Sequence record: EF380025.1
Source of the DNA: Escherichia phage phiX174
Reading direction: 5' to 3' (one strand)
DNA: 5,386 bases
Made by a program: the position numbers and the translations under genes. Shown here piece after piece: positions 52-964 of the stretch; position 1 is the stretch's first letter, and each line of letters begins with the position of its first letter. Below the pieces are notes generated by a model, which was given only the letters and a program-made list of their open reading frames with translations, was not told the origin of the DNA and searched no databases.

Positions 52-136
52 TGAGTCGAAAAATTATCTTGATAAAGCAGGAATTACTACTGCTTGTTTA
101 CGAATTAAATCGAAGTGGACTGCTGGCGGAAAATGA
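1..136 (+). CDS. A: Replication initiation protein A, 3' terminal portion (wraps from 3981..5386); stop TGA at 134-136
   Basis: Frame continues from codon 5385-5386-1 (CAG) with no stop until TGA at 134-136; the end is ...KSKWTAGGK. The stop overlaps the C start (ATGA at 133-136). Confidence 0.93.
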   Translation, partial: SFIASMTQKLTLSDISDESKNYLDKAGITTACLRIKSKWTAGGK

Positions 137-221
137 GAAAATTCGACCTATCCTTGCGCAGCTCGAGAAGCTCTTACTTTGCGACCTTTCGTCATCAACT
201 AACGATTCTGTCAAAAACTGA
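51..221 (+). CDS. K: Protein K (small nonessential membrane-associated protein), overlapping the end of A and the start of C
   Basis: ATG at 51, TGA at 219-221; translation MSRKIILIKQELLLLVYELNRSGLLAENEKIRPILAQLEKLLLCDLSSSTNDSVKN (56 aa), near-identical to phiX174 K. Confidence 0.9.
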   Translation: MSRKIILIKQELLLLVYELNRSGLLAENEKIRPILAQLEKLLLCDLSSSTNDSVKN

Positions 222-369
222 CGCGTTGGATGAGGAGAAGTGGCTTAATATGCTTGGCACGTTCGTCAAGGACTGGTTTAGATATGAGTCACATTTTGTT
301 CATGGTAGAGATTCTCTTGTTGACATTTTAAAAGAGCGTGGATTACTATCTGAGTCCGATGCTGTTTAA
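133..369 (+). CDS. C: Protein C (DNA packaging / ssDNA synthesis switch); 78 aa here, ending at TAA 367-369, which is 8 codons short of the canonical 86-aa C
   Basis: ATG at 133 (ATGA overlap with the A stop); ORF track 115..369 is in the same frame; translation MRKFDLSLRSSRSSYFATFRHQLTILSKTDALDEEKWLNMLGTFVKDWFRYESHFVHGRDSLVDILKERGLLSESDAV then TAA. Canonical phiX174 C continues QPLIGKKS to TGA at 391-393. Confidence 0.88.
   Translation: MRKFDLSLRSSRSSYFATFRHQLTILSKTDALDEEKWLNMLGTFVKDWFRYESHFVHGRDSLVDILKERGLLSESDAV
320..349 (+). promoter_or_regulatory. Promoter pD (sigma70-like), inside gene C upstream of D
   Basis: TTGACA at 320-325, 18-nt spacer, TACTAT at 344-349; predicted start near 356-358, consistent with the D mRNA start I recall for phiX174. 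Confidence 0.6.
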
Positions 370-389
370 CTATTAATAGGTAAGAAATC

Positions 390-848
390 ATGAGTCAAGT
401 TACTGAACAATCCGTACGTTTCCAGACCGCTTTGGCCTCTATTAAGCTCATTCAGGCTTCTGCCGTTTTGGATTTAACCGAAGATGATTTCGATTTTCTG
501 ACGAGTAACAAAGTTTGGATTGCTACTGACCGTTCTCGTGCTCGTCGCTGCGTTGAGGCTTGCGTTTATGGTACACTGGACTTTGTGGGATACCCTCGCT
601 TTCCTGCTCCTGTTGAGTTTATTGCTGCCGTCATTGCTTATTATGTTCATCCCGTTAACATTCAAACGGCCTGTCTCATCATGGAAGGCGCTGAATTTAC
701 GGAAAACATTATTAATTGCGTCGAGCGTCCGGTTAAAGCCGCTGAATTGTTCGCGTTTACCTTGCGTGTACGCGCAGGAAATACTGACGTTCTTACTGAC
801 GCAGAAGAAAACGTGCGTCAAAAATTACGTGCAGAAGGAGTGATGTAA
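390..848 (+). CDS. D: External scaffolding protein D
   Basis: ORF track 390..848, 152 aa; MSQVTEQSVRFQTALASIKLIQ... matches phiX174 D almost exactly (one difference recalled, Gly to Cys in NIINCVERP); AGGT Shine-Dalgarno-like motif at 378-381. Confidence 0.96.
   Translation: MSQVTEQSVRFQTALASIKLIQASAVLDLTEDDFDFLTSNKVWIATDRSRARRCVEACVYGTLDFVGYPRFPAPVEFIAAVIAYYVHPVNIQTACLIMEGAEFTENIINCVERPVKAAELFAFTLRVRAGNTDVLTDAEENVRQKLRAEGVM
568..843 (+). CDS. E: Lysis protein E (MraY inhibitor), fully embedded in D in the +1 frame
   Basis: ATG at 568 preceded by GAGG (555-558); 91 aa MVHWTLWDTLAFLLLLSLLLPSLLIMFIPLTFKRPVSSWKALNLRKTLLIASSVRLKPLNCSRLPCVYAQEILTFLLTQKKTCVKNYVQKE; stop TGA 841-843. The ORF track entry 520..843 is the same frame extended upstream to a TTG. 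The N-terminal transmembrane segment and Pro21 are intact. Confidence 0.93.
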   Translation: MVHWTLWDTLAFLLLLSLLLPSLLIMFIPLTFKRPVSSWKALNLRKTLLIASSVRLKPLNCSRLPCVYAQEILTFLLTQKKTCVKNYVQKE

Positions 849-964
849 TGTCTAAAGGTAAACAACGTTCTGGTGCTCGCCTTGGTCGTCCGCAGCCGTT
901 GCGAGGTACTAAAGGCAAGCGTAAAGGCGTTCGTCTTTGGTATGTAGGTGGTCAACAATTTTAA
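848..964 (+). CDS. J: Small basic DNA-binding (DNA packaging) protein J
   Basis: ATG at 848 overlapping the D stop (TAATG), AGGAG at 836-840; 38 aa MSKGKQRSGARLGRPQPLRGTKGKRKGVRLWYVGGQQF; TAA at 962-964. Below the ORF-track length cutoff. Confidence 0.92.
   Translation: MSKGKQRSGARLGRPQPLRGTKGKRKGVRLWYVGGQQF

What the first reader, a model, noticed from the sequence alone, without database searches (positions are those of the whole stretch)
568..843. Lysis protein E carries several substitutions, including His at residue 3
Relative to the canonical E as I recall it, this E has R3H, S30L, M50I, T72I and R90Q. I recall R3H as one of the described Epos alleles that allow E-mediated lysis without the host chaperone SlyD, so the lysis phenotype may differ from standard phiX174. 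The R3H and S30L codon changes are synonymous in the overlapping D frame, the pattern expected when D is under stronger constraint than E.
Basis: partly seen in the sequence, partly recalled or inferred. Interest (0 to 1): 0.45.

Follow-up and report, generated by a model that had tools for sequence, protein, structure and literature searches.

The report
Known Epos (R3H) lysis-gene allele
The lysis gene of this laboratory-evolved phiX174 genome carries the well-known R3H "Epos" change plus three mostly passenger changes; the protein is already in GenBank, so this is a correct but ordinary observation.

Summary
Against the Sanger reference, E (568-843) has R3H (G575A), S30L (C656T), M50I (G717T), T72I (C782T) and R89Q (G833A), not R90Q. 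Four of the five are silent in D; G717T also makes D G110C.

R3H is the published Epos allele pos6, and it arose again when phiX174 was adapted to slyD-defective hosts.

The window is not a new phage. Its D, E, J, F and H proteins are ABN49803, 04, 05, 06 and 08, which places it at GenBank EF380025. That record is one of the hydroxylamine-mutagenised, bottlenecked lines of Silander, Tenaillon and Chao (2007).

- R89Q is the state of the AF176034 lab strain (isolate Anc), used here as baseline, and of all eight wild phiX174-clade E proteins examined.
- R3H, M50I and T72I are shared with sister line 3F90. S30L is private to the window.
- His3 and Leu30 are the native residues in G4 and ID21 E.

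Across 24 genomes of that experiment, D-silent sites that change E are hit as often as ordinary silent sites (11/24 vs 7/15). D-changing sites are depleted (p=0.0025).

The slyD-independent phenotype is predicted, not tested. Already known; low interest.

The parts
568..843 (+). Gene E (lysis protein E, 91 aa), nested in the +1 frame of gene D
   Evidence: ORF and translation. Same coordinates as E in NC_001422. Pfam PF04517 Microvir_lysis, 71.8 bits against a cut-off of 25. The exact protein is ABN49804.1.
390..848 (+). Gene D (external scaffolding protein), the overlapping and more constrained frame
   Evidence: Pfam PF02925, 322.6 bits. Only one residue change, G110C. The exact protein is ABN49803.1.
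574..576 (+). E codon 3, CGC>CAC (G575A): R3H, the Epos allele pos6; silent in D (T62T)
   Evidence: PMC4825663 Table 1 and PMC3324380 Table 2. Shared only with 3F90/EF380024 among phiX174 records. One of only 6 G>A variants among 391 in the experiment.
655..657 (+). E codon 30, TCA>TTA (C656T): S30L at the cytoplasmic end of the transmembrane helix; silent in D (V89V)
   Evidence: Private to the window within the experiment. Found in no phiX174 record, but T is the native base in 369 G4/ID11/ID21-type records. Leu30 is native in G4 and ID21 E.
715..717 (+). E codon 50, ATG>ATT (G717T): M50I, coupled to D G110C
   Evidence: Shared only with 3F90. D Gly110 is invariant in phiX174, G4, ID21 and WA13.
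781..783 (+). E codon 72, ACA>ATA (C782T): T72I; silent in D (N131N)
   Evidence: Also present in 3F90 and in 3E90.
832..834 (+). E codon 89, CAG (A833): Gln89, the ancestral and wild-type state; Arg only in the Sanger reference
   Evidence: AF176034 isolate Anc and all lines have A833. (all eight wild phiX174-clade E proteins examined have Q89). PMC4825663 lists G833A as a background difference between J02482 and AF176034.
628..630 (+). E codon 21, Pro21, the residue required for lytic activity; intact
   Evidence: P at residue 21. The requirement is stated in PMC5039524.
555..558 (+). Shine-Dalgarno GAGG of gene E, 9 nt upstream of the ATG at 568; unchanged
   Evidence: Sequence read directly.
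555..584 (+). Predicted local mRNA hairpin (hypothesis only). The outer helix pairs 555-560 with 578-584 and covers the SD. The inner stem pairs 562-565 with 573-576 and closes a loop holding the AUG. G575A breaks the C563-G575 pair.
   Evidence: MFE goes from -13.6 to -11.3 kcal/mol in the 548-608 window, with pair probability 0.63; ddG is in the top 2% of single substitutions in that window. The hairpin is not seen in larger windows.

Best explanation
The window is the genome of a laboratory phiX174 line, GenBank EF380025, from the drift and mutagenesis experiment of Silander, Tenaillon and Chao (2007). Its gene E encodes an intact lysis protein E. The N-terminal transmembrane helix with Pro21 inhibits MraY, and the C-terminal domain is the part handled by the host chaperone SlyD.

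The protein carries four derived changes on the Gln89 background of the AF176034 lab strain (isolate Anc), the baseline used here.

G575A (R3H) is the known Epos allele pos6. According to the literature it raises the rate of E synthesis, so that enough of this unstable protein accumulates to lyse cells lacking SlyD. On slyD+ hosts the phage lysis time is about the same as wild type. The prediction for this genome is therefore plaque formation on slyD-defective E. coli C, with little change on normal hosts.

S30L and T72I are ordinary C>T products of hydroxylamine. They are silent in D and became fixed under tight bottlenecks because E's residue sequence is nearly unconstrained at such sites.

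M50I is the E-frame by-product of G717T. That base change's more important effect is probably D G110C, at an invariant glycine.

Shown here: sequence identity, provenance, allele identity, and the D-versus-E constraint pattern. Taken from the literature: the Epos phenotype and its expression-level mechanism. Inferred: that the phenotype holds in this four-change background, and that the RNA-level cause is the melting of a small hairpin around the E start codon.
For: Sequence and substitutions.

Provenance: the exact D, E, J, F and H proteins are ABN49803, 04, 05, 06 and 08. They fall between EF380024 (ABN49787-97) and EF380026 (ABN49809-19). The paper assigns EF380009-EF380032 to its lines and describes 250 mM hydroxylamine, 89% C>T, an E. 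coli mutT host, bottlenecks, and deliberate picking of small plaques. The window's changes against AF176034 are 30/51 C>T.

Allele identity and phenotype: PMC4825663 Table 1 and Discussion report 'markedly faster E protein synthesis'. PMC3324380 shows G575A arising on a slyD- host and states that expression-raising E mutations restore lysis.

Tolerance of His3 and Leu30: both are native in ID21 E (PDB 8G01) and G4 E. His3 is also in WA13 and in the wild phiX174-like phage MED1.

Passenger status of the other changes: D-silent C sites in the overlap are hit 11/24, against 7/15 outside it (Fisher p = 1). The rate is similar in the transmembrane part (5/10) and the C-terminal part (6/14). D-changing C>T sites are hit 3/39.

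D G110 is invariant. Pro21, the SD and the ATG are intact.
Against: No phenotype was measured for this genome. The Epos effect was established for R3H alone or with L19F, not together with S30L, M50I and T72I. The last two lie in the C-terminal domain that SlyD handles, so they could change E stability in either direction.

The primary papers (Bernhardt 2002, Orta 2023, Tanaka and Clemons 2012) could not be read here. The mechanism is taken from secondary descriptions.

The thermodynamic support for an RNA-structure mechanism is weak. In four broad windows G575A changes the opening energy of the ribosome-binding site by only -0.4 to -1.1 kcal/mol. That puts it at the 34th percentile of 372 single substitutions.

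PMC4825663 Table 1 reports no change in lysis time for pos6 phage on slyD+ E. coli C. The allele may therefore be phenotypically silent under the conditions in which this line was grown.
Confidence: 0.78

Rival explanations
1. G575A was positively selected in this lineage on a slyD+ host, rather than fixed by drift. The lineage is crippled and derived from small plaques. The change would act as a compensatory up-regulator of lysis-gene expression, or would have been picked directly by the experimenters' choice of small plaques. It would act by melting a local hairpin over the E Shine-Dalgarno and start codon.
For: G575A is not a hydroxylamine-type change. Only 6 of 391 unique variants in the experiment are G>A, and 2 of those pre-date it. 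The chance that one of the 4 new ones lands on site 575 is about 0.003.

It sits on the shared stem of the window and 3F90. That stem has 8 non-C>T changes out of 16, against 37 of 375 elsewhere (Fisher p = 1e-4).

The paper states that low-fitness ancestors were obtained by purposely choosing small plaques.

In the 548-608 window, G575 pairs with C563 in a stem that closes the AUG loop. G575A costs +1.95 kcal/mol (top 2% of the null). The neighbouring silent C576T, which was fixed on slyD- hosts in PMC3324380, costs +1.70 kcal/mol (top 6%).
Against: The probability argument is post hoc, because the site was flagged for being famous. With Ne = 3-10, drift can fix anything. pos6 shows no change in lysis time on slyD+ hosts. 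PMC3324380 argues that these E changes carry a cost on normal hosts, since they do not spread there. The hairpin appears in only one of several folding windows and is replaced by long-range pairs in larger contexts. The atypical spectrum of the stem may simply reflect a different, undocumented passage history.
Confidence: 0.22
2. R3H is present, but its Epos effect is cancelled or irrelevant in this background. The combined allele (R3H, S30L, M50I, T72I) would behave like wild type or be weaker, so the phage would remain SlyD-dependent.
For: M50I and T72I lie in the C-terminal domain, which is the part that interacts with SlyD (PMC10688784). Met50 is conserved in every natural E examined, and Thr72 is conserved in all the phiX174-clade E proteins examined. 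The line comes from low-fitness stocks in which deleterious changes were being fixed.
Against: Residue changes in E accumulate at the silent-site rate across the experiment, including 6/14 in the C-terminal part. This argues that such changes are close to neutral. The lytic activity resides in the N-terminal ~29-35 residues (PMC5039524, PMC10688784). Met50's conservation is explained by the invariant D Gly110 codon that shares its base. Epos acts through the rate of synthesis, which downstream residue changes should not undo.
Confidence: 0.15
3. His3 and Leu30 were imported by recombination from a G4-like or ID21-like phage that carries them natively, rather than arising by point mutation.
For: His3 and Leu30 are both native in G4 and ID21 E.
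Against: The two changes arose on different branches: R3H on the window+3F90 stem, and S30L privately in the window. Each is a single base change in a phiX174-identical context. The 55-mer around 575 is 100% identical to 3F90, and both variant-centred 55-mers match the other genera with mismatches (94.5% to WA13, 96.4% to the G4/ID21 types). No other G4-type bases lie between 575 and 656.
Confidence: 0.01
4. The substitutions are sequencing errors in the deposited record.
For: These are Sanger-era genomes sequenced from single clones.
Against: R3H, M50I and T72I are present in two separately sequenced genomes, the window and 3F90. T72I is also in a third, 3E90. Only S30L rests on a single record, and it is an ordinary C>T change of the type the mutagen makes.
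Confidence: 0.02

Closest known systems
phiX174 Epos allele pos6 (E R3H, G575A), Bernhardt, Roof and Young 2002
   Same: It is the identical nucleotide change (G575A) and residue change (R3H) in the same gene of the same phage, and it is silent in D.
   Different: Here it was not selected on a slyD host. It sits with S30L, M50I and T72I on a heavily mutated genome (51 changes from the AF176034 lab strain, isolate Anc). Its phenotype in this combination has not been measured.
E protein of sister line 3F90 (EF380024, ABN49793.1)
   Same: It carries R3H, M50I, T72I and Q89, and shares 26 derived genome-wide variants with the window.
   Different: It lacks S30L. The two genomes differ at 42 sites.
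Natural E proteins of ID21 (PDB 8G01), G4, WA13 and MED1
   Same: His3 is the native residue in all four. Leu30 is native in ID21 and G4. The transmembrane segment is otherwise almost identical, differing only at Leu19 (Phe in G4) among residues 10-29.
   Different: Apart from MED1, these are separate genera with divergent C-terminal domains. In them His3 is the wild-type state rather than a suppressor, and whether it makes them SlyD-independent was not established by anything read here.
Canonical phiX174 E (NP_040709 in NC_001422; PDB 8G02)
   Same: Same length, frame, Shine-Dalgarno, start codon, Pro21 and overall sequence (86/91 identical).
   Different: It differs at residues 3, 30, 50, 72 and 89. 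The reference's Arg89 is itself the unusual state.

Membership tests
Microvirus lysis protein E (Pfam PF04517; MraY-inhibiting single-gene lysis protein) | Sequence match to the family model | tested here: met
   PF04517 at 71.8 bits against a cut-off of 25, E = 4e-20. phmmer gives E = 1e-50 to PDB 8G02 'Lysis protein E'.
Microvirus lysis protein E (Pfam PF04517; MraY-inhibiting single-gene lysis protein) | Gene nested out of frame inside scaffolding gene D | tested here: met
   E is at 568-843 inside D at 390-848, offset +1.
Microvirus lysis protein E (Pfam PF04517; MraY-inhibiting single-gene lysis protein) | N-terminal hydrophobic helix containing the essential Pro21 | tested here: met
   Residues 10-29 are identical to the reference and Pro21 is present. 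S30L raises the mean hydropathy of residues 10-32 from 2.30 to 2.50. The Pro21 requirement is stated in PMC5039524.
Microvirus lysis protein E (Pfam PF04517; MraY-inhibiting single-gene lysis protein) | Inhibits MraY and lyses the host | not testable with these tools
   Inferred from the fact that the source was a plaque-forming phage line.
Epos alleles of phiX174 E (plate on slyD) | Carries one of the published changes, G575A/R3H or G624T/L19F | tested here: met
   A at 575, so CAC = His3. The allele is defined in PMC4825663 Table 1. L19F is absent: G624 is unchanged.
Epos alleles of phiX174 E (plate on slyD) | Plaque formation or lysis on a slyD-defective host | not testable with these tools
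   This needs a plating or induction experiment. It has been reported for R3H alone but not for this four-change allele.
Epos alleles of phiX174 E (plate on slyD) | Increased rate of E synthesis | tested here: inconclusive
   RNA folding was the only available proxy. The opening energy drops 0.4-1.1 kcal/mol but is not an outlier (34th percentile) in broad windows. It is a top-2% destabiliser in the 548-608 window only.
Silander, Tenaillon and Chao 2007 phiX174 lines (EF380009-EF380032) | Proteins identical to a record of that series | tested here: met
   D, E, J, F and H are ABN49803, 04, 05, 06 and 08. They are bracketed by EF380024 and EF380026.
Silander, Tenaillon and Chao 2007 phiX174 lines (EF380009-EF380032) | Carries the series' founder changes and the hydroxylamine C>T spectrum | tested here: met
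   It has 7 of the 8 AP100 founder variants and 30/51 C>T overall, with 19/25 on its private branch.
Silander, Tenaillon and Chao 2007 phiX174 lines (EF380009-EF380032) | Nucleotide identity to EF380025 itself | not testable with these tools
   EF380025 is absent from the searchable collection, and the contig look-ups found nothing.

The most novel reading that the evidence does not exclude
The Epos change G575A was not a drift passenger. It was selected on a normal slyD+ host in a crippled phiX174 lineage as a compensatory up-regulator of lysis. It works by melting a small hairpin (562-565 paired with 573-576, inside the 555-584 helix) that masks the E start site. That is the same stem hit by the silent C576T seen on slyD- hosts. 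If so, Epos-type changes would be a general route for tuning lysis timing, and the natural His3 of G4, ID21 and WA13 E would mark lineages with constitutively higher E translation.
Probability: 0.15. Interest if true: 0.35.

Novelty: already known. Interest (0 to 1): 0.1.

Why it matters
It matters little as a discovery. The allele, its phenotype and this exact protein sequence are all published or deposited. The value of the check lies in calibration:
- It shows that the five 'substitutions' are a mix of one ancestral polymorphism (Q89), one classic suppressor (R3H) and three mutagenesis or bottleneck products.
- It gives a clean quantitative picture of overlapping-gene constraint. In 24 mutagenised genomes, E residue changes accumulate at the silent-site rate while D is protected.
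- A minor practical point follows: anyone using the EF380024 or EF380025 lines for lysis-timing or fitness work should know that they carry an Epos allele.

Tried and rejected
(1) RNA accessibility as the explanation of Epos. The opening energy of 553-585 was computed in four contexts, with a null of 372 single substitutions. G575A has the expected sign but is unremarkable. Local-window folding gives a suggestive hairpin in one window only. I kept it as a hypothesis, not a result.

(2) Counting His3 against Arg3 among uncultivated phiX-like phages. Two degenerate-pattern scans of viral contigs both returned zero hits, so they are uninformative.

(3) Broad protein homologue search. It returned mostly spike-in or assembly variants of phiX174 E clustered at 90% identity. 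It was useful only for showing that Q89 dominates.

(4) Reading the primary sources. Bernhardt 2002, Orta 2023, Tanaka and Clemons 2012, and Zheng 2008 (both papers) are not held. I used secondary descriptions instead.

(5) The ID52-E paper, consulted to learn whether natural His3 proteins (G4, alpha3) are SlyD-independent. The text gives no residue-level or per-protein conclusion.

(6) Direct retrieval of EF380025 or the encoding contig failed. Provenance was established instead from exact protein accessions.

(7) Recombination from G4- or ID21-like phages as the source of His3 and Leu30. Rejected: the two changes arose on different branches, and each is a single base change in phiX174 context.

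(8) Enrichment of changes in E relative to the rest of the genome. Not significant.

Full report
**What is in the sequence**

The window is a complete 5386-base phiX174-type genome in the standard Sanger numbering. The ORF at 568-843 translates to a 91-residue protein. It has the same coordinates as gene E in NC_001422 and is nested in the +1 frame of gene D at 390-848. It matches Pfam PF04517 (71.8 bits, cut-off 25), and D matches PF02925.

A base-by-base comparison with NC_001422 finds 54 differences genome-wide, five of them in E:

| Base change | E frame | D frame |
|---|---|---|
| G575A | R3H | T62T (silent) |
| C656T | S30L | V89V (silent) |
| G717T | M50I | G110C |
| C782T | T72I | N131N (silent) |
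| G833A | R89Q | A148A (silent) |

The Shine-Dalgarno GAGG (555-558), the ATG at 568 and the essential Pro21 are intact. Five changes in 276 nt is not an excess over the genome-wide density (Poisson P = 0.15, or 0.27 against the AF176034 baseline described below).

**Where the genome comes from**

No record in the phage collection is identical to the window. The best match is EF380024 (isolate 3F90) at 99.2%. That accession belongs to Silander, Tenaillon and Chao 2007 (PMC1845161), which deposited EF380009-EF380032.

In that experiment phiX174 was passaged on E. coli mutT with 250 mM hydroxylamine at every transfer. C>T made up 89% of substitutions. Bottlenecks were 3, 10, 30, 100 or 250 plaques. 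The low-fitness ancestors were produced by serial bottlenecks in which small plaques were purposely chosen.

The window's exact E protein is ABN49804.1. Its D, J, F and H proteins are ABN49803, 49805, 49806 and 49808. These consecutive numbers, in gene order, fill the gap between EF380024 (ABN49787-97) and EF380026 (ABN49809-19). The window is therefore EF380025, the one record of the series missing from the searchable collection. The record order runs 3D90, 3E90, 3F90, [EF380025], 10E90, 10F90. That suggests the isolate name 10D90, but this is an inference.

**Sorting the five changes**

As baseline I used AF176034 (isolate Anc), a lab strain that differs from the Sanger sequence at five sites including G833A. 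Fane-lab origin of the Silander stock is stated, but its identity with AF176034 is my assumption.

I fetched the other 23 genomes of the series and compared everything to that baseline.

- **Gln89** is not derived. AF176034, every line of the series and all eight wild phiX174-clade E proteins examined have it. So do 86 of 120 database representatives, against 6 with Arg. The Sanger Arg89 is the odd one out.
- **R3H, M50I and T72I** lie on a stem shared only with 3F90. T72I also occurs in 3E90.
- **S30L** is private to the window.

To count carriers I queried megablast with 55-mers centred on each variant, so that the 28-base exact seed had to include the variant base. Among phiX174 records, A575 is found only in 3F90 and T717 only in 3F90. 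T782 is in 3F90 and 3E90, and T656 is in none.

T656 is, however, the native base in 369 G4, ID11 and ID21-type records. An alignment shows that His3 is the native residue of G4, ID21, WA13 and the wild phiX174-like phage MED1, and that Leu30 is native in G4 and ID21. ID21 E, which has both His3 and Leu30, is the protein in PDB 8G01. Both residues are therefore fully compatible with a working E protein.

**Is R3H an Epos allele?**

Yes. PMC4825663 Table 1 lists pos6 = G575A = R3H, pos5 = G624T = L19F and pos4B = both, all from Bernhardt et al. 2002. For pos6 it reports the same phage lysis time as wild type on E. coli C, but much faster lysis when the cloned gene is expressed. Its Discussion says these mutations give markedly faster E synthesis, perhaps through mRNA translatability.

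PMC3324380 adapted phiX174 to a slyD-defective host. In its two slyD-adapted lines every change observed was in gene E, including G575A/R3H, G624T/L19F and C576T, which is silent in both frames.

**How it most likely works**

Established knowledge, from PMC5039524, PMC10688784 and PMC11812184:
- E's N-terminal transmembrane helix, kinked at Pro21, binds MraY next to helix 9 and blocks lipid I synthesis.
- The cytoplasmic C-terminal domain is bound by SlyD, which keeps the protein stable and competent for membrane insertion.
- Epos changes bypass SlyD by making more E rather than by stabilising it.

I tried to see the RNA basis of this. In four broad folding windows G575A lowers the cost of opening the ribosome-binding region by only 0.4-1.1 kcal/mol. 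That is the 34th percentile of 372 single substitutions, so it is not distinctive.

In a short window (548-608) a different picture appears. A hairpin pairs the Shine-Dalgarno (555-560) with 578-584. An inner stem, 562-565 with 573-576, closes a loop that holds the AUG. G575A breaks the C563-G575 pair (+1.95 kcal/mol, top 2% of the null). C576T weakens the G562-C576 pair (+1.70 kcal/mol, top 6%).

E's start lies inside the D reading frame, and D is a heavily made scaffolding protein (240 copies per procapsid scaffold). Ribosomes translating D would repeatedly unwind long-range structure, so a fast-refolding local hairpin is plausible. However, the prediction depends on the window chosen, and I treat it as a hypothesis only.

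**The D-versus-E constraint claim**

E codon position 2 is D codon position 3. Nearly every D-silent change therefore alters an E residue: 23 of 24 possible D-silent C>T changes in the overlap do so.

Across the 24 genomes the overlap holds 16 distinct variants. Among the C>T variants:

| Class | Observed | Opportunities |
|---|---|---|
| D-silent | 11 | 24 |
| D-changing | 3 | 39 |

- D-silent changes are enriched (binomial p = 0.0025), and E shows no depletion of residue changes (p = 0.59).
- D-silent C sites are hit equally often inside the overlap (11/24) and in the D-only part (7/15; Fisher p = 1).
- Those rates resemble the silent-site rates in F, G, H and A (0.49-0.60).
- The rate is the same in E's transmembrane third (5/10) and its C-terminal part (6/14).

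S30L and T72I are therefore best read as passengers. G717T hits D Gly110, which is invariant across three genera inside a highly conserved block. M50I is probably the by-product of a D lesion, and the conservation of Met50 in natural E proteins is explained by that shared base.

**Drift or selection for R3H?**

G575A is not the kind of change the mutagen makes. Of 391 distinct variants, 346 are C>T and only 6 are G>A, and two of those pre-date the experiment. The chance that one of the four new G>A events falls on site 575 is about 0.003.

The stem it sits on is also unusual. It has 8 non-C>T changes out of 16, against 37 of 375 elsewhere (p = 1e-4). This hints at selection, either compensatory or through the deliberate picking of small plaques.

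Against this, the argument is post hoc and bottlenecks of 3-10 fix almost anything. In addition, pos6 shows no lysis-time change on slyD+ hosts. I give this reading about 0.2.

**Verdict**

The thing itself is already known: a published suppressor allele, in a protein sequence already deposited, in a laboratory-mutagenised genome. What remains untested is whether the four-change allele keeps the SlyD-independent phenotype. Interest is low.

Noticed in passing
window 367 (gene C, 133-393 in the reference): C367T turns gene C codon 79 into a stop, so the product is 78 aa instead of 86. The change is in the passaged founder AP100 and in every line of the series, and GenBank annotates C as 133..369 there. 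It looks like a laboratory adaptation rather than damage.
   Followed up: partly
window 371 and 373: Two C>T changes 17-19 nt upstream of the gene D start codon (390), just 5' of its Shine-Dalgarno. Both lie on the stem shared by the window and 3F90 (each also turns up once elsewhere: 371 in 100A90, 373 in 250B55). They could alter D and E expression on the same lineage that acquired R3H.
   Followed up: no
window 717 (D codon 110): G717T makes D G110C, the only residue change in D. Gly110 is invariant in phiX174, G4, ID21 and WA13 D, inside a highly conserved block. It is a candidate for the low-fitness, small-plaque lesion of this lineage.
   Followed up: partly
whole window; the stem shared with L002 (EF380024, 3F90): The 16 variants that define the window+3F90 stem (10 exclusive to the pair, 6 also seen once in another line) include 8 that are not C>T (G>A, G>T, A>C x2, A>G x2, C>A, T>G). 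Elsewhere in the experiment 37 of 375 are non-C>T (Fisher p = 1e-4). That branch had a different mutational or selective history from the hydroxylamine passages.
   Followed up: partly
window 4784: The window has C here, like the Sanger reference and AP100. Its closest relative 3F90 has T, like AF176034. This is a homoplasy or reversion inside the window+3F90 clade, or a sign of recombination between lines.
   Followed up: no
window 848-964 (gene J) and 3339 (gene H): J has 3 changes in 38 residues (K6Q, P12L, A28V), the highest density of any protein here. J A28V (C930T) and H D137N (G3339A) are also listed among the adaptive changes in the independent flask adaptations of PMC3324380, so these sites recur.
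   Followed up: no
L007 (3E90), L012 (3B90), L013 (3C90) position 576; L007, L018 (30B90), L024 (10E90) position 581: C576T is silent in both D and E, and was fixed on slyD-defective hosts in PMC3324380. It occurs in three lines of this experiment. C581T (E T5I, D silent) occurs in three others. In the local fold, C576 pairs with G562 and C581 pairs with G558 of the E Shine-Dalgarno. This may be recurrent mutagen hot spots, or recurrent tuning of E translation.
   Followed up: partly
PDB 8G02 chain B compared with window E residue 42: The solved phiX174 E chain reads SWKARNLRK (Arg42), where the window, the Sanger reference and AF176034 have Leu42. ID21 E also has Arg there. The structural construct therefore differs from the textbook sequence at this position.
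   Followed up: no
window 2312 and 3918: Two intergenic C>T changes. One is in the F-G spacer. The other is the base immediately after the H stop codon. Both are private to the window among the lines first compared, and neither was examined further.
   Followed up: no
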